Of a DNA stretch of 64,000 nucleotides, positions 21,178-42,390 are shown one piece after another. The DNA is from Mobula hypostoma (Eukaryota). The DNA lies in NCBI RefSeq assembly GCF_963921235.1, contig NC_086097.1, forward strand, positions 135,720,001-135,784,000, read 5' to 3'. A model generated the notes under the pieces. It was not told the DNA's origin and searched no databases. It saw only the letters and a list, made by a program, of their open reading frames with translations. A program made the position numbers and the translations under genes. The stretch's first letter is position 1, and the number at the start of each line of letters is the position of its first letter.

Positions 21178-24100
21178 CACGCGGAGGGGTTCTGAGAGAC
21201 CAGACACCGCAGTACAGTCCCTAGCTGTTGGCTGGCCCGCTCGTTCTGGCCATTGGCTTGTGGGTGGAATCCTGAAGACAAACTCATGGAGGCCCCAGGA
21301 GATTACAGAATGCCCTCCAGAAGTTTGATGTGAATTGAGAGCCCCTGCCTGACACAACATCTACAGGTAAACCATGCAATTTGAAAACATGCAGTACCAG
21401 TAAGCTGGCTGTTTCTTTGGCAGAGGGGAGTTTAGGTAAAGGAATGAAGTGTACAGACTTGGAGAAACGATCAACTACTGTGAGAATGGTGGTGTTACTA
21501 TCTGATGGGGGAAGACCGGTGACAAAATCCAGGGCAATGTGGATTTCAATGTGGATCCAGGGCAAAGGGTCTCTTGGGGATAGACAGGGGTTGTAACAGA
21601 CCAGCAGGTGGCTGGTTAGAGTTCTTGCCTTGAGCACAGAGCGAGCAGGCTGAGACAAAATTGCGGATGTCATCTCCCATGGAGGGCCACCCGAACCGCT
21701 GACAGAAGGCCTGAGTATGCTTGGTTCTAGGGTGGCAGGATAACTGGGAATGATGACCCCACTATAATACCTGTGAGTGGACAGAGCTGGGAACATAAAC
21801 ACGGTTAGGGGGGCATTGACTAGGGGCTGCCTCGCCCTGTTGAGCAGTTTGCACCATGGATTCAATGTCCCATTGCGCTGCACCCACAAGACAGTGAGCA
21901 GGGAGGATAACATCGGGGACCTCAGGGGTCTCAGAGGAAGGTAATCTTCAGGAGAGGGCACCAGGTTTTCCATTCTTGGAACAGGGGCGGAAGGACAGAG
22001 TAAAATTGAATCTTAAGAAAAGCAGGGACCAATGAGCTTGATGGGAGTTGAGATGTTTGACCATACAGATATATTCCAGATTCTTGTGATCAGTCCAGAA
22101 TAAAAATGGCATCTTTGCTCCCTCCAGCCAATGCCTCCACTCCTCCAGAGCTAGCCTCACAACCAGCCATTCCCAGTTTCCGACATCGTAATTCTGCTCC
22201 GTGGGAGTGAGGCGGTGAGAGAAGGCACACGGGTGTACCTTCTCATCCAAGGCCGAGCGCTGAGTGAGAACAGCTCCTACGCCAGTGCCAGACACATCCA
22301 CCTCCACAATGAACTGCCGGTTGGTATCGGGTTGAATCAGGATGGGGGCAGAGGTGAAACGCTCCTTCAGGTCAGAGAATGCTTTTTCAGCAGCAGGGGA
22401 CCAGGAGGATCTGACAGCCGATGAGGTGAGAGCTGTGAGTGGTTCAGCCAGCGTACTGTAATTTCTGATGAAGCAGCGATAGTAGTTAGCAAAGCTCAGG
22501 AAACGTTGCACCTCCCAACGAGTCGAAGGTTGGGGCCGTTCGATCACCGCCTTGACCTTCTGTTGGTCCATCTGAATGGAACAGCCTGAAATTACATACC
22601 CCAGGTATTGCAATGAAGCTCACATTTCTCAGCCTTCACAAAGAGCTGGTTCTCCAGAAGGCGCTGGAGAACTCTGCGGACGTGACCTGCGTGTTTAGCA
22701 AGGGACTTAGAAAAAAAATCAAAATGTTGTCGAGATACACAAAAACAAATTGGTTCAGCATGTCCCCGAGAACGTCATTTACCAGGGCTTGGAAGATGGC
22801 GGGGGCATTGGTGAGACTGAATGGCATGACCAGATACTCGTAATGGCCTGAGGTGGTACCGAAGGCCGTCTTCCACTCGTCCCCTTCATTGATGCAGACA
22901 AGATGGTAAGCATTACAGAGATCAAGCTTGATGAAAGCTGAAGCTCCTTGTAGTAGTTCAAATGCCTAGGTCATGAGCGGAACAGGGTAGCGGTTCTTAA
23001 CAGTAACTTCATTCAGTCGTAACAGTGACTTCATTCAGTCGCCAGTAAACAATGCATGGACGCAAGGAGCTGTCCTTCTTTTCAACAAAGAAAAAACTGG
23101 CACCAGCAGGGGAGAAAGATGGCCGGATGGTGCCTGCGGCCAGAGACTCTTGAATGTACTTATTCATGGCTTCTGTTTCAGGTACGGACAGGGAATACAG
23201 GCGGCCCCTTGGGGGAGAGATTAATGGTGCAATCATATAGATGATGAGGCAGCAGGGAAGTGGCCCGGTACTTGCTGAACACAGCCTTGAGGTCAATGGA
23301 TTCAGGAAGAATGGCACTAAGATCCGGAAATTCCTCAGGGGGATCTGGGCTTGGAGACAAGGAGATGTGAGCATGGTGGAGGCAGTGGGAGTAACAGAAT
23401 GGGTTCCAGCCTACAATCTTGCGACTGAGCCAGTGGGGGTTGTGTCTGACCAACCAGGGATGGCCCAGGACAATGGGAGCTTGAGGAGAGTCAATAACAT
23501 AAAGGGTTAACTGTTCATGATGGTTGCTGGATAAACTGATACTCACCAGGGCCGTGACATGGGTGATGTTAGCCAGTCTCTGACCGTTCAAGGCATTGGC
23601 CATTAATGGTGACTGGAGAGCAGATGTGGGTAATCCCCACTGGGCAGCATATGACATACACTACCTTGGCTCGATCAATCAGTTGGTTGTAATTCAAAAA
23701 TAAGGGTGCACTGGGAAAGAAAAGAGCAGCAGGTACCGGGATCAACCGAGTACTTTTCTAGAGGAGGCAGACGGGGCTCTTGGACGGGAGGAGTAAGCGA
23801 GAACGTGTAGGGCAGGGCGGAAGATGCAGTTGCAGAATGTTGATGGGCACTCTGGGACAGCTGGAATAACTGAGTCTGGGCCACAAGATCAGCTACATTG
23901 GCAGAAAGCGATTCCACTGCCCTGAACACAGAGTCCAGTTGGTTCTGGTGTCTCCCCAGCATCACTCTATTGTTCCAGGACAACTGTCAGACAACTGGGG
24001 TCTGCTGGATCCATTCTGCCCAGATTGTACTGTCAGGCGCTGGAGCAGGGATCCAATTGCAGGCCCAGTACTGTGCACACAGTGATATTAATTGAGTAAC

Positions 24101-24524
24101 AAATCCCAAGGTGAAAACAAAGTTGGTGTCAAAGTTCAGGCAGAGATCAAAACATCCAGAGAAATCCAAAAACCAGAATCGGGAAACAAGCAGAGTCAAT
24201 ATTCAGATGGACAGAGTACAGATTTGAATGCTGGACAGGCTCAGGATAATTCACTGGCACAGTCTGGCAACAAACATGTGAAAACACAGGACTGAAATAC
24301 ACTGAGCAATAAACAGAGTGGCAGATGATAGGTGGAGCACAATGAGACACAGGGGCTAGCAGTACAGGTAACAATGAGAAACAGTTGAGAGACGGGGTAC
24401 CCAGTAATACAGGGGCTGGAGTAGAGCAGGAGCAGGGACAGGGGCACATGGCAATACAAAACCACAGACTGACAGCTAGGGGGAAAACACACAAAAAGAC
24501 AGAGTTCAGCTGAAGGTACTGACA
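21178..24524 (-). mobile_element. Gypsy (Tf1/sushi group) LTR retrotransposon: 5' LTR plus decayed gag-PR-RT-RH-IN, 3'-truncated
   Basis: gag MDPAD (ATG at 24014) and [122 protein letters not shown]. Many frameshifts. Confidence 0.95.
24031..24524 (-). repeat. 5' LTR (494 bp) of the Gypsy element
   Basis: TGTCA...TGACA termini; directly followed on the minus strand by PBS-like GTACAATCTGG and the gag ATG. Confidence 0.88.
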
Positions 24525-28548: not shown

Positions 28549-30030
28549 CAGAATCAGAATCAGAATCAGGTTTATTATCACCGGCATGTGTCATGAAATT
28601 TGTTAACAGCAGTAGCAGTTCAATGCAATACATAATATAGAAGAAAAAAAACAAAATTAAATAATAATAAAAATAAATAAATAAGTAAATCAATGGCAGT
28701 ATATGTATATTGAATAGATCAAAAATTGTGCAAAATAAAGAAATAATATATATTTAAAAAGTGAGGTAGTTTTCATGGGTTCAATGTCCATTTAGGAATC
28801 AGATGACAGAGGGGAAGAAGCTGTCCCTGAATTGCTGAGTGTGTGCCTTTGGGCTTCTGTACCTCCTTCCTGATGGTAACAGTGAGAAAAGGGCATGCCC
28901 TGGGTGCTGGAGGTCCTTAATAATGGACGCTGCCTTTCTGAGACACCACTCCTTGAAGATGTTCTGGGTACTTTGTAGGCTAGTACCAAGATAGAGCTGA
29001 CTAAATTTACAACCCTCTGCAGCTTTTTTCTGTCCGGTGCAGTAGGCCCTCCCTCCCACATACCAGACAGTGATGCAGCTTGTCAGAATGCCATCCACGG
29101 TACATCTATGGAAGTTTTTGAGAGTAATTGTTGACATACCAGATCTCTTCAGACTGCTAATGAAGTATAGCTGCTGTCTTGCCTTCTTTATAACTACGTC
29201 GATATGTTGGGACCAGGTTAGGTCCTCAGAGATCTTGACACCCAGGAACTTGGAAACTGCTCACTGTGGTAAACCATGTATATAGGTTGTAACTGGGTTA
29301 CCTGTCTGGACATGCCTGGACATGCCCCTCTGCTGACTGCTCCTGTGGCTCCTCCCACAGACCCCTGAATAAAGGTGATTGTCTCGCTGCTCCTCCCTCA
29401 GTCCCAGACAGATATTCAGTATGGACGTGGGTCCATTTTACTGTTAATAAAAGCCCTTCAGTATCTACTCTACTTCTAGTCTTTTGGAATAATTGATAGT
29501 GCATCAATTTTATTAATAGTAAAATGGACCCACGTCCACTCACCCTCTCCACTTCTGATCCCTCTATGAGGATTGGTATATGTTCCTTCATCTTACCCTT
29601 CCTGAAGTCCACAATCAGTTCTTTCCTCTTACTGACATTGAGTGTCAGGTTGTTTCTGTGACACCACTCCACTAGTTGGCATATCTCGCTCCTGTACACC
29701 CTCTCATCACCACTTGAGATTCTACCAACAATGGCTGTATCATCAGCAAATTTATAGATGGTATTTGAGCTACGCCTAGCCACACAGTCATGGGTATATA
29801 GAGAGTAGAGCAGTGGGCTAAGCACACATCCCTGAGGTGTGCCAATGTTGATTGTCAGCGAGGTGGAGATGTTATCACCAATCCGCACAGGTTATGGTCT
29901 TCCAGTTAGGAAGTCGAGGATTTAATTGCTGAGGGAGGTACAGAGGCTCAAGTTGTGCAACTTCTCAATCAGGATTGTGGGAATGATGGTATTAAATGCT
30001 GAGCTATAGTCGATGAACAGCATCCTGACC
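28549..30030 (-). mobile_element. Rex1/Babar LINE with (gattct)n tail, interrupted at 29265-29538
   Basis: [43 protein letters not shown]; tail atcagaatcagaatcagaatcag. Confidence 0.93.
29265..29538 (+). mobile_element. Single LTR (29265-29506) plus 32-nt extension, TG...CA, 5-bp TSD ctcac
   Basis: TSD 29260-29264 / 29539-29543; host Rex1 is continuous once the insert is removed (compare ~59960-59985); TATA-like and AATAAA signals on +. Confidence 0.85.
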
Positions 30031-32789: not shown

Positions 32790-33705
32790 CCAAAGTTGCT
32801 GGTGAATGCAGCAGGCCAGGCAGCATCTCTAGGAAGAGGTACAGTCGACGTTTCAGGCCGAGACCCTTTGTCAGGACTAACTGAAGGAAGAGTTAGTAAG
32901 AGATTTGAAAGTGGGAGGGGGAGGGCGAGATCCAAAATGATAGGAGAAGACAGGAGGGGGAAGGATGGAGCCAAGAGCTGGACAGGTGATTGGCAAAGGG
33001 GATATGAGAGGATCATGGGACAGGAGGTCCAGGGAGAAAGACAAGGGGGGTGGGGAACCCAGAGGATGGGCAAGGGGTATAGTCAGAGGGACAGAGGGAG
33101 GAAAAGGAGAGTGAGAGAAAGAATTTTAATTCCACATCCCATTCCCATTCTGACATGTCTATCCACGGCCTCCTCTACAGTAAAGATAAAGCCACACTTA
33201 GGTTGGAGGAACAACACCTTATATTCCGTCTGGGTAGCCTCCAACCTGATGGCATGAACATTGACCTCTCTAACTTCCGCTAATGCCCCACCTCCCCCTC
33301 GTACCCAATCCGTTATTTATTTTTATACACACATTCTTTCTCTCACTCTCCTTTATCTCCCTCTGTCCCTCTGACTATACCCCTTACCCATCCTCTGGGT
33401 CCCCTGCCCCTTGTCTTTCTCCCTGGGCCTCCTGTCCCACGATCCTCTCATATCCCCTTTGCCAATCTCCTGTCCAGCTCTCGGCTCCATCCCTCCCCCT
33501 CCTGTCTTCTCCTATCATTTGGATCTCCCCTCCCCCTCCCACTTTCAAATCTCTTACTATCTTTTCCTTCAGTTAGTCCTGACGAAGGGTCTCGGCCTGA
33601 AACGTCGACTGTACCTCTTCCTACAGATGCTGCCTGGCCTGCTGCGTTCACCAGCAACTTTGATGTTTGTTGCTTGAATTTCCAGCATCTGCAGAATTCT
33701 TGTTG
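32790..33705 (+). mobile_element. Penelope-like element: inverted partial pLTR, GIY-YIG C-terminus, pLTR; 11-bp TSD
   Basis: 33125-33283 reads FNSTSHSHSDMSIHGLLYSKDKATLRLEEQHLIFRLGSLQPDGMNIDLSNFR*; arms 32791-33124 and 33333-33662 are inverted; TSD ttcaggatgta 32779-32789 / 33706-33716. Confidence 0.92.
33574..33611 (+). ncRNA. Minimal type I hammerhead ribozyme motif (Penelope pLTR)
   Basis: tagtc-CTGACGA-agggtctcggcct-GAAAC-GTC-gactg: stem I tagtc/gactg, intact core, palindromic ACGT stem III, GUC cleavage triplet at 33604-33606. Confidence 0.8.
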
Positions 33706-39197: not shown

Positions 39198-40342
39198 CAA
39201 AATGGTTGTAGTGTTGCTAAACTGAGATAGTGATTGGTACTGTACAGGTTGGTTCCAGAATCAAATGGTTCAAGGGAAGTAGCTGTTTTTGAACAATGTG
39301 GCGTGGGACTTCAAACTTTTATACCTCCTTCCTGATGTTAGCTATGAACCAGATGGTGGGGATCATTGATGATGGATGCTGCCTTCTTCAGGCAGCGTCT
39401 CTTGAAGACACTACCAATGGTGGGGAGGAATGCACCATGATTCACGAGGCAGAGTCCGCTACTCTCTGTAGTTTCTGATGAATTGCTGCACGAGACCATG
39501 ATGCAAACAATCAGAATATTCAGCAAGACAAACCTCCTTAGCCTTCTGAGAAAGCCAAGACGTTTCACACTTTTCTTCATTTGAGTCTATATGCTGTGCC
39601 CAGGACCTGGTTATTTGGTGAGTTAGGTCAGGCAGCATGTCTGGAACGGAAGACAGAGTTAACAGTTCAGGTCTGATTGGATTCTGGTGAAAGATATATG
39701 GAGAAAGTAATGTTCACCTCTCCCTAATGACTCCCATTTATACAGGAATATCAGGAATAGGCCAACAGTTACTTACCAGAATCTAGCACTGCTAAAGCTT
39801 TGTGTTCCTGCTTACCTCCCTCCAGCAGCTGTCTTCTATCTTCAGACTTCCTTGCCACCCCCCCTCCCCACCATCTTGTTCCATCTGTTTTTCCCTCCTT
39901 TTTCCTCTCTGGCTTGGTCTGCCATTGTCTTCCCACTCATAATGGCACCATTTATTCCCCTGTCATTATCTTCCCACTCGCCTTCCCTACATGATACTAC
40001 CAGTCTGCCCCCTTACACTCCTCAGTCCACCAGTCACCTCAAAACCTTCCTCTCCACTCCCTTTCTCCTCTTTGTACTGGCCGTTTCATCTCTCCACTCT
40101 CTGCCCTGATGCAGGATTTTGACCTGCAATGTTGACTATTCCTTTCCCCCTACATATGCTGCTCAACCCATTGAGTTCCTCTCATCAGAGATGCCCAATG
40201 GGTGAGCCTTCATCCACACTTTGGTAAATCTGACCTCCGGGCTACAGCCCATCCCCCTGCAGACAAAGAGAAGCTGGGAGCATCCAGTACAGAAGGCCAT
40301 ATGATGTAGGTCTGAGCAAACAGGTCAGCTTCTGCATAACTA

Positions 40343-40965
40343 CAAGGGTGATTGATAAGTTTGGGGCCTAAAGTAGAAGGAGTCGATTTTAGAAAGCCTA
40401 GCATGTTTATTTTTCAACATAGTCCCCTCCTACATGTACACACTTAGTCCAGCGGTCGTGGAGCATACGGATCCCTTCTTTGTAGAAGTGGTCTGCGGCA
40501 TGTGTGATTGATAAGTTTGTGGCCTAAGGTGGAAAGAGACGACTGATTGACTTCAAACTTCCTGCATTTTCACTCAAAGAGTTGAACTGCACATGCATGT
40601 AACGAGAGCATCTTGGACCTCAAGGTGGTCCACAGCAGGGGTGATTGATAAAATTGTGGCCCAAGGTAGAGGGAGATGAGTTATACCGCCCTCGTTACAT
40701 ACTCATGCAGTTCAACTCTTTGAATGAAAATGCAAAAAGTTTGAAGGTAATAACTCATCTCCTTCTACCTTAGGCCACAAACTTATCAATCACTCCTGCT
40801 GTGGACCACTTTCTGGAGGTCCAAGATGCCGACTTCTACAAAGAAGGGATCTTTATGCTCCATGACCGCTGGGCTAAGTGTGTAAATGTAGGAAAAATAA
40901 ATGTGCTAGGTTTTCTAAAATTGACTCCTTCTACCTTAGGGCACAAACTTATCAATCACCCCTTG
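40343..40965. mobile_element. Mariner-derived MITE with TA TSD
   Basis: TA at 40341-42 and 40966-67; inverted ends caagggtgattgataagttt / aaacttatcaatcaccccttg; arm encodes mariner C-terminus DADFYKEGIFMLHDRWAKCVNVG. Confidence 0.88.
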
Positions 40966-42390
40966 TACTTAAGAGTCGGTAGACTGGACAATGTTCAAGC
41001 ACCCAGCTGTCAGTCTAAATGAGTATGTTATCATCATCCTCACAGAAATATGGTGAGAACTCTGTACCAAAGAGGGTAATCCAGATATTCCTAAACCAGA
41101 AATGATGAATAAAATGGGGGATGCACTCCTGGTTTAGGTCTCCAATTTTCAAACCAAGTGATCTTGACCTGTACAATAAATCAAAATATGACCTCCAGAA
41201 AGCTATCAGAAATACCAAGAAACAGTATCAGCTCAAAATTGAGTCTTGCCATGAATTGCATGTTATAACAGACCAGAAAACAAAGTCAGCCGGTATTATC
41301 AACAATAGCACATCCCTTCTTGATGAATTTAACACATTCTATGCTCATTTTAACAGAAGGACAGCAGAATGTTGCCACCTACCCCTACAGTCTATGATGT
41401 ACCACTGTGGACGTAAGGACAGTCTTCTGGAGAGTGAGCTGTGAAAAGCATCTGGTGTACTTGGATACTGTGCAGATCAGCTGATGGGTAATTGCAGACA
41501 ATTGTAATTTCTCCTTGTTTTCATTTGTGGTTCCCATCCACTTTAAGAAGACCACTATCATCCTGCTACCTAATGAAAAGAAAGTAACACGCCTTAATGA
41601 CTATCACCCAATGGCTCTAACATTTACCACCATGAAGTGCTTCGAGAGGTTGGTCATGGCATGTGTTAACTCCAGTCTTCCAGACAACCTCAACCCATTG
41701 CAATTGACCTACTGATGAAACAGGTCAATGGTGGACACTGCTTCAAGTTTAAGTTTAATTGTCATACAACCATACATATGTGTACAGTGAAATGAACCAG
41801 TGTTCCTCTGGGACCAAGGTGCAAAGTGCAGTATGTATAGTTACACTCTGCACATATAGTTACGATAGCACATACAGTCACAAAATCAATATTAGCACAA
41901 GTCCCTGAGTGGCATGGCCTGGAGATGAAGATGCATGTGATGTTGTCCTGGAGCCACGTTTCTGCAAAAATAATATGCAGCAGTTCTTCATCTCACACTG
42001 GGTCAGCTGCAAATGAAAGCAAATCAGCTTGTCTTCCAGAGAGCGAACACTGGAGAACAGCCTACAGGGGCCAGCCCCCAGCCCAGCATGGACATCAACA
42101 TGCCCGCCATGCCTCTGTTGTCTCTCACACCATATCCGGTGCCTCCTTCCTTGGGTGGCTGTAACAGGTGACCCTGGTCCTCATAACAACCACGGCCACG
42201 CAGCTTTCCTGCCATCCGTCTCCCCAATTCACCGGACTTGCAATATTTTATATTACCAATGTCCAACAGGGTCTTGCGATAACAAGGAAAACATTATACA
42301 CACACATTTGCACCATTTATTTGACTTGGAGAAGCCACAGCAACCAAGTGCACAGCTAGCTTACTGTAAGATGCTAGATTCCATGGTCCT

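What the first reader, a model, noticed from the sequence alone, without database searches (positions are those of the whole stretch)
29260..29543. LTR plus inverted internal copy, with TSD: possible integrated strong-stop cDNA of a self-priming retrotransposon
Seen: a 274-bp insert in a Rex1 LINE starts TG, ends CA and has a perfect 5-bp TSD (ctcac). It is not a plain solo LTR. After the apparent LTR end (gtgcatca, 29506), 29508-29538 is the reverse complement of LTR-internal 29422-29452 at 30/31 nt, and the one mismatch is G.U compatible. Established: Tf1/sushi-type elements prime reverse transcription with their own 5' RNA annealed next to U5, using about 11 nt. Inference: RT copied a much longer self-primer into plus-strand strong-stop DNA, and integrase inserted this abortive product using a CA inside the primer copy. 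That would be a route to single-LTR insertions without LTR-LTR recombination. Alternatively this is a mobile mini-element with a fold-back 3' end.
Basis: partly seen in the sequence, partly recalled or inferred. Interest (0 to 1): 0.75.

Follow-up and report, generated by a model that had tools for sequence, protein, structure and literature searches.

The report
Over-copied self-primer fossil in solo LTR
This 274-base insertion is one end-repeat of a very common jumping gene plus a 31-base mirror copy of part of that repeat, 16 bases more than its parent-type relatives carry; it is likely a rare copying slip in which the element's enzyme over-copied its own RNA primer before insertion, and such fossils would help map how these elements likely prime themselves.

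Summary
The 274-bp insert (29265-29538) has a CTCAC duplication, and its arms match at 30/31. Public runs of three related species show a high-copy LTR ending at 29506. Parent-type copies keep only 15 nt of LTR complementarity (to 29522) and then turn into a shared leader. The last 16 nt are therefore extra, templated on the element's own R sequence. Over-long fold-backs recur: three contigs look genomic and one junction-only contig appears in two species. They are rare and of unequal length, and one runs into U3, past the predicted RNA start. Best reading: a self-priming element likely over-copied its retained RNA primer and was joined at a CA that closes a 5-bp terminal hairpin. The single LTR needs no strong-stop integration, because a full-length cDNA plus ordinary LTR-LTR recombination gives the same product. 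The TSS, the family TSD length and pol were not obtained. Earlier scan notes already report this self-priming clade in this genome, fold-back copies, and analogous tRNA over-copies on other DNA.

The parts
29260..29264 (+). Left target-site duplication CTCAC
   Evidence: one copy at the empty site of the LINE paralog at about 59.9 kb
29265..29506 (+). LTR, 242 bp, TG...CA, of a high-copy family; carries a 10-bp tandem duplication at about 29306-29325
   Evidence: loose ends diverge before 29265 and behind 29506; L045 has the same ends, 181/203 aligned columns identical
29367..29374 (+). Predicted TATA box (AATAAA here, TATAA in sister copy L045)
   Evidence: function inferred
29398..29402 (+). 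Initiator-like TCAGT; predicted transcription start near 29400
   Evidence: spacing from the TATA-like box; inferred, not measured; positions 29398 and 29400 vary in organism D
29422..29437 (+). R segment that templated the extra 16 nt; holds a small hairpin (29421-29436)
29438..29452 (+). Predicted self-primer pairing segment, ending in the poly(A) signal AATAAA (29446-29451)
   Evidence: complement of the native 15-nt site
29507..29507 (+). One-base spacer between the LTR end and the primer site
   Evidence: sequence
29508..29522 (+). Native primer-binding-site position, 15 nt, shared with parent-type copies; not tRNA-like, complementary to own R
   Evidence: 21 contigs in 4 runs follow the window to 29522/29523 and then enter a shared leader
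29523..29538 (+). Non-native inverted extension, 16 nt, ending in CA; 29525-29538 can fold into a flush 5-bp hairpin (TG...CA)
   Evidence: absent from parent-type contigs; terminal pair probability 0.84-0.98 as single-stranded DNA
29539..29543 (+). Right target-site duplication CTCAC
28551..30029 (-). Host LINE fragment (RT 3' part, microsatellite tail near 28550), split by the insert
   Evidence: 85-90% identical to paralogs at 44.9-46.1 kb and 59.5-60.4 kb; RVT_1 and PF09004 hits

Best explanation
This is one LTR followed by the family's 15-nt self-complementary primer site plus 16 extra inverted bases; reverse transcriptase likely made the extra bases by copying a still-attached piece of the element's own RNA (a likely self-primer), integrase likely joined the product at a CA inside that copy, and later LTR-LTR recombination likely left the single LTR. 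Steps: (1) the RNA would start near 29400 (predicted); (2) R segment 29438-29452 would pair with the site after the LTR and be cut behind AATAAAA, leaving a primer with a 5' tail of about 38 nt (inferred from Tf1); (3) the plus strand, finishing the right end, would run into the primer and here copied 31 nt (the 31 nt are seen, the template is inferred); (4) after RNase H, the single-stranded overhang would fold into a 5-bp TG...CA mini-duplex ending at 29538 (computed), a possible integrase substrate; (5) insertion left a 5-bp duplication (seen); (6) recombination between the two LTRs would remove the interior (inferred).
For: The native site is 15 nt: 21 contigs leave at 29522/29523 and 5 more at 29516 into a shared ATG-bearing leader, in organisms A, B and D. 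The extension matches own R 30/31 but sister copy L045 only 18/31 ungapped (about 24/31 with one gap, by eye). It also mirrors the G at 29431, a minority allele (about 34% of depth in X1, 3% in X10). Three organism-D contigs carry changes at 29519/29520 that mirror organism-D R variants at 29441/29440 (unphased), as expected if the site tracks R. Fold-backs beyond 15 nt recur: X1 record 8 (at least 47 nt), X10 records 9 (at least 39 nt) and 16, and X5 record 32 (28 nt). Each has fewer differences than an ordinary LTR laid backwards would show (4 vs 7, 7 vs 15, 8 vs 13, 2 vs 8). The 31-nt end lies inside the predicted 53-nt primer. Its CA is 1 of 3 within that span, and 1 of 2 among 22 along the whole inverted LTR, that closes a stem of at least 5 bp. 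Only about 3% of LTR-end depth continues into the primer site, so lone LTRs likely dominate this family. Tf1 precedent: about 50% of cDNAs keep a single-stranded primer copy at the 3' end (PMC11042837, passages).
Against: X10 record 16 folds back into U3 (joint 29363/29536, shorter side 64 nt), which a 5'-end primer starting near 29400 cannot template. The TSS is predicted only. No full-length element with an extended 3' LTR was seen (none could be read with these tools). The terminal-hairpin point is post hoc and rests on one end; the extension end shares only CA with the U5 and U3 ends. A 4-bp TSD reading cannot be excluded. Record 8 has no counterpart in run X2 of the same sample (plateau minus arm-only depth = 0). 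Record 32 is junction-only and could be a library chimera. Summed contig depth is not a copy number.
Confidence: 0.4

Rival explanations
1. A U3-containing template made the extension. The plus-strand 3' end carrying the 15-nt site snapped back on its own R (displaced strong-stop DNA), or switched onto another R copy (second RNA, or a primer taken from the RNA's 3' LTR), and was extended as DNA. It stopped at 31 nt or was cut back from a longer fold-back.
For: LTR plus native site folds with its 3' end paired on R as single-stranded DNA. Record 16 passes 29397 and reaches about 29300 or further. Displaced dead-end plus-strand strong-stop DNA accumulates in Ty3 particles (PMC5371799 section 2.2). 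Strong-stop self-priming is known for the HIV-1 minus strand (PMC4668388 passages).
Against: A lone snapped-back strand has one 3' end and would not give two joined ends with a neat duplication without further steps (inference). Cutting back from a full palindrome would need a deletion ending exactly at the TSD on 2 nt of microhomology.
Confidence: 0.27
2. One reading: an LTR-only duplex was integrated directly. Displaced plus-strand strong-stop DNA with the over-copied primer was made double-stranded, for example by re-priming with the self-primer RNA, and integrase used its U3 end and the CA in the extension. No recombination step is needed.
For: The anatomy fits exactly. A self-primer can re-anneal to its own DNA copy (inference). 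The primer site follows only about 3% of LTR-end depth.
Against: A strong-stop intermediate as such has no finished minus-strand U3 end, so an extra synthesis step is needed (established reverse-transcription scheme, own knowledge). The locus cannot be told apart from a recombination product. Solo LTRs by recombination are the standard outcome (PMC7175516 passage).
Confidence: 0.2
3. A host rearrangement after insertion: a replication template switch at the native 15-bp inverted repeat of a full-length element lengthened the repeat, then rejoined at the far end, deleting the interior and the 3' LTR.
For: The native stem exists. Fold-backs vary in length. One mismatch in 62 arm bases is compatible with formation at or after insertion (P(<=1)=0.25 at about 4% private divergence).
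Against: Rejoining would have to fall on the last 0-2 bases before the TSD out of several kb. The end is a CA.
Confidence: 0.08
4. The 274-bp unit is a mobile mini-element with a fold-back 3' end.
For: It has its own predicted promoter and a strong hairpin. X5 record 32 and an X2 contig stop at the homologous CCA, 2 nt earlier than an unbranched graph path would, which hints at more than one copy ending there (inference).
Against: No row of diverse loose ends behind 29538 among 89 contigs laid, 22 of 23 rows shown; this check only sees copies sharing about 21 exact bases. There is no second LTR and no polypurine tract: the flanks are LINE.
Confidence: 0.03

Closest known systems
Tf1/Tf2 (S. 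pombe), Tj1, Tosmo and the Tf1/sushi group: self-primed reverse transcription (PMC7175516, PMC4600332, PMC10085805, PMC5341516; passages read)
   Same: No tRNA site; the bases after the LTR are complementary to the element's own LTR; the primer copy can stay on the cDNA 3' end (PMC11042837 passages).
   Different: Pairing is 15 nt, one base from the LTR end, and covers the poly(A) signal. It is predicted to lie about 38 nt inside the RNA rather than at its first 11 nt. Here an over-long copy is fixed in the genome with a TSD. Clade membership is untested (no pol obtained).
Integrase-independent Tf1 and HIV-1 insertions guided by single-stranded PBS (PMC11042837, passages)
   Same: Primer-derived letters persist at the right junction of an insertion.
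   Different: Those use homology to the target; the HIV-1 cases mostly lacked TSDs. Here there is a clean duplication, an intact U3 end and no target homology beyond the junction.
Dead-end plus-strand strong-stop DNA of Ty1/Ty3 (PMC5371799, section 2.2 read)
   Same: LTR plus a copy of the minus-strand primer.
   Different: There the primer is tRNA, 12 nt are copied, and the product is described as non-integrated; here the copy is of self sequence and sits between TSDs.
Ordinary solo LTR (PMC7175516 passage)
   Same: One LTR, TG start, short TSD.
   Different: 32 extra bases lie between the LTR's CA and the TSD.

Membership tests
LTR of an LTR retroelement | TG...CA termini fixed across many copies | tested here: met
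LTR of an LTR retroelement | TATA-like box and poly(A) signal in U3-R-U5 order | tested here: met
   motifs at 29368 (TATAA in L045) and 29446; function not measured
Ordinary solo LTR | TSD directly abuts both LTR ends | tested here: not met
   32 nt between 29506 and the right TSD
Tf1/sushi self-priming group | Site after the LTR complementary to own LTR, not to tRNA | tested here: met
   15 nt native; no tRNA family among the 4 weak Rfam matches over 29100-29700
Tf1/sushi self-priming group | Primer is the first ~11 nt of the transcript | tested here: inconclusive
   promoter motifs predict a start about 38 nt upstream of the pairing segment; no RNA 5' ends available
Tf1/sushi self-priming group | Three-duplex 'pretzel' structure | not tested
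   one search shows the central duplex only; the parent leader was not folded
Tf1/sushi self-priming group | Chromovirus RT/IN phylogeny and chromodomain | not testable with these tools
   no pol of this family obtained
Tf1/sushi self-priming group | RNase H cleavage releases the primer | not testable with these tools
   needs experiment
Integrase-made insertion | CA at both joined ends with the family's TSD length | tested here: inconclusive
   the 5-bp reading gives CA at both ends; a 4-bp reading is possible; L045 has no TSD
TRIM or MITE-like mini-element | Two terminal repeats and many copies with the same ends | tested here: not met
   one LTR only; no diverse loose ends behind 29538 (limited sensitivity)
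Rex1/Babar LINE (host) | RT phylogeny | not tested
   RVT_1 plus PF09004 and a microsatellite tail fit; the label is recalled

The most novel reading that the evidence does not exclude
In this self-priming family the primer can re-prime on displaced strong-stop DNA, so LTR-only double-stranded cDNAs are made and integrated directly. This insert is one whose right end kept an over-copied primer, and a real share of the family's lone LTRs would then be born solo rather than made by LTR-LTR recombination.
Probability: 0.2. Interest if true: 0.75.

Novelty: new variant of a known kind. Interest (0 to 1): 0.5.

Why it matters
Self-priming has been shown experimentally only for Tf1-type elements, where the primer is the first 11 nt of the RNA. 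Insertions like this one record what lay 5' of the pairing segment, so their length distribution in one assembly can map the primer's 5' end, separate RNA-primer copying from DNA snap-back, and show how relaxed integrase is about its CA end, without any bench work. If no full-length carriers exist, solo-LTR counts, widely read as a measure of recombination and DNA loss, would be inflated in self-priming families. The locus itself is a dead, rare by-product with no sign of host function.

Tried and rejected
No whole genome is held for this window, so copies could not be tabulated in the assembly. No second LTR copy lies in the window. A viral scan with a 17-nt junction motif gave 44 loci, all chance-level: no LTR similarity beyond the motif, and the best one (L003) is a phage-like gene. 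Two metagenome scans and a second viral scan gave 0. The genome scan gave 1 locus (L045); its assembly had no RT_RNaseH or LINE match, but nothing rang in the controls either, so these are uninformative. No RNA holder was listed as such; run X12 (RNA is a guess) had no cover at 29514-29555, which is no evidence either way. Contigs that align only to 29508-29538 (depth 152.5 in X1, 204.3 in X2, 12.2 in X10), and the joint 29412/29538, are ordinary LTRs laid on the wrong arm and were dropped. Three single-locus contigs that leave at 29515, 29517 and 29526 into long unrelated sequence (X1 and X2) were left as ambiguous; their other flank is unseen. The Rfam matches are 4 microRNA models far below their cut-offs, reflecting any long hairpin. 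ARAGORN found no tRNA. The sigma-70 scan is irrelevant for a eukaryote. The G.U argument was rejected (see observation check). Literature: 9 searches listed no paper on integrated over-copied self-primers or on a poly(A)-signal self-primer in animal elements. The library lacks most subscription papers, and Atwood-Moore 2005/2006, Butler 2001 and Lauermann & Boeke 1997 were seen only as citations. No supplements were read; LTR tables in them could bear on the clade.

Full report
Observation. The insert is as described. It runs from 29265 to 29538 (274 bp), starts TG, ends CA and is flanked by CTCAC on both sides; 29508-29538 is the reverse complement of 29422-29452 at 30 of 31 bases. It interrupts a minus-strand LINE (RVT_1 and PF09004 hits; the name Rex1/Babar is recalled) whose paralogs at about 45.3 and 59.9 kb are continuous across the site. 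The hairpin is far beyond chance (z -6.25, 0 of 200 shuffles) and is the only 30/31 close inverted pair in the window. One caveat: the right junction can also be read as a 4-bp duplication with the insert ending CAC, and I could not measure the family's duplication length.

Where the LTR ends. No assembly is held, so I used public runs and laid their contigs on the insert (X1 organism A, X5 organism B, X10 organism D, X12 organism A; 24 of 248 loose-end rows, 40 of 74 variant rows and 32 of 4294 pieces were shown). The family is very abundant. Loose ends diverge before 29265 and behind 29506, so the LTR is 29265-29506. A sister copy found as a 508-bp stray contig in a bacterial assembly (L045) is identical at 181 of 203 aligned columns, ends at the same CA and has no extension and no TSD. 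It has a purine-rich stretch upstream (15 of 20), so it is likely a 3' LTR. It shows TATAA where the window has AATAAA at 29368, which, with TCAGT at 29398, predicts a start near 29400. No run covered the right junction into the LINE, so this locus itself was not seen elsewhere.

What parents carry. In one search (29483-29545; 89 contigs laid from X1, X2, X5, X10; X1 and X2 are one sample; 22 of 23 loose-end rows and 32 of 90 pieces shown), 21 contigs follow the window to 29522 or 29523 and 5 more to 29516. All then enter a shared sequence with an ATG about ten bases on, in all three organisms. I read this as the leader and gag start of parent elements (inferred; no protein obtained). Native complementarity is thus 15 nt (29508-29522 with 29438-29452), one base from the LTR end, covering the poly(A) signal. 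The three rows that leave at 29516 begin with C at 29517, and L045 has G at 29443, so the window's mismatch is likely a later C-to-T change. Three organism-D contigs carry changes at 29519 and 29520 that mirror organism-D LTR variants at 29441 and 29440. This is unphased but is what self-priming predicts. A rival function of the stem, masking the poly(A) signal in the 5' LTR, is compatible and not excluded. Only about 3% of LTR-end depth continues into this site; summed depth is no copy number, but lone LTRs likely dominate.

The extension recurs. After removing contigs that are ordinary LTRs laid on the wrong arm, four shown pieces join a true LTR end to an inversion longer than 15 nt. These are X1 record 8 (at least 47 nt), X10 record 9 (at least 39 nt), X10 record 16 and X5 record 32 (28 nt; a like contig in X2 is inferred from the row's median length). 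Each has fewer differences than a backwards LTR would have. By eye, the loose ends of records 8, 9 and 16 continue the inverted LTR and differ from the window mostly at listed family variants; that of record 32 reads like the inverted R of a sister subfamily. Records 8, 9 and 16 run on as single contigs through sequence that a perfect copy would share with normal LTRs, so they likely carry private changes and are genomic rather than library chimeras (inference). Against: record 8 has no counterpart in X2, and record 32 is junction-only. Record 32 stops exactly at the CCA homologous to the window's end, two bases before an unbranched graph path would stop, a weak hint of further copies ending there. 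Record 16 has the same depth (8.6) as the joint 29363/29536 on opposite strands (shorter side 64 nt), so it likely folds back to about 29300 or further, well into U3. In X1 the pieces that pass 29527 make up a depth of 12 against about 909 for all site-bearing pieces: a rare by-product. No TSD could be read for any of them.

Mechanism. The extra 16 nt were templated on this element's own R: 30/31 against own R versus 18/31 ungapped against L045, including the minority G at 29431. The simplest template is the primer RNA, already paired in register. If the RNA starts near 29400, the primer has a tail of about 38 nt, and a plus strand that finishes the right end can copy up to 53 nt. In Tf1 about half of the cDNAs keep a single-stranded primer copy (PMC11042837, passages), and the primer is the first 11 nt, cut by RNase H (PMC7175516, passages). 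The 31-nt end closes a flush 5-bp TG...CA hairpin (29525-29538; terminal pair probabilities 0.84 and 0.98). Only 2 of the 22 CA sites along the inverted LTR, and 1 of the 3 within 53 nt, do so. This could be why integrase used it, and it would form only if the overhang is single-stranded while R is duplexed, as in a finished cDNA. It is a post hoc observation on one end. A finished full-length cDNA also supplies a proper U3 end, which a strong-stop intermediate lacks. Later LTR-LTR recombination then yields exactly this locus. Record 16 shows that a U3-containing template is used at least sometimes: snap-back of displaced strong-stop DNA (which folds with a paired 3' end; dead-end products accumulate in Ty3, PMC5371799 section 2.2), or a switch to another R copy. 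That rival gets 0.27. A host template switch (0.08) must rejoin exactly at the TSD. A mobile 274-bp unit (0.03) should leave many diverse loose ends behind 29538, and none was listed.

Relation to what is known. It works like Tf1/sushi self-priming (PMC4600332, PMC10085805, PMC5341516, passages). Membership of that group is untested, and its defining geometry (primer at the very 5' end) is predicted not to hold. Self-priming has also been predicted from sequence for plant Tcn1 and TAR lineages (PMC6317226, passages), so LTR-complementary sites outside Tf1/sushi are not unheard of. Fungal GalEa elements have a different hairpin that is not LTR-complementary (PMC5445492, passages). PMC3601003 (passages) was used only for general LTR layout. 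Nine literature searches listed no description of integrated over-copied self-primers; the library is incomplete and the primary Tf1 papers were seen only as citations. Earlier scan notes, which are unchecked AI notes, describe a self-priming Gypsy clade in this genome, said to be ray-like, with 12-16 nt sites at the poly(A) signal, fold-back copies, a two-U3-end fold-back in another genome, and LTR plus over-copied tRNA fossils. My data agree independently on the 15-nt site and on fold-backs; the labels Gypsy and Mag-like come from those notes and were not tested.

Verdict. A real and non-ordinary structure, a rare reverse-transcription by-product of a likely self-priming family, and a new variant of a known kind. 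Its value is as a member of a fossil series that can map the primer and test whether some solo LTRs are born solo. Interest 0.5.

Noticed in passing
L045:225-427 (minus strand): A 508-bp contig of a bacterial assembly titled Aeromonas cavernicola holds a copy of this animal LTR family (89% identical over aligned columns) with a purine-rich stretch upstream: likely animal DNA contaminating the assembly.
   Followed up: partly
window 29306-29325: A 10-bp tandem duplication in U3 of this copy; many family contigs and L045 show a 10-base gap here.
   Followed up: partly
window 32791-33662: Inverted repeat with 334-bp arms at 94%; resembles the two-armed Penelope-type insertions described in earlier notes on this genome (label not tested).
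   Followed up: no
window 40337-40971: Imperfect long inverted repeat with several nested 28-29/31 arm pairs.
   Followed up: no
window 21284-24500 (minus strand): A separate decayed Gypsy-type element with rve and RT_RNaseH hits; no LTR pair found in 19.5-25.2 kb and no similarity to the studied LTR.
   Followed up: partly
X1/X2 loose ends behind 29515, 29517 and 29526: Three single-locus contigs in organism A carry the LTR end plus 9-20 further matching bases and then long unrelated sequence; they may be further truncated or extended ends, but their other flank is unseen.
   Followed up: no
depth table: The U3 part (29327-29370) draws about ten times the contig depth of the 3' end in X1, suggesting sister families that share U3 but differ in R-U5.
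   Followed up: no
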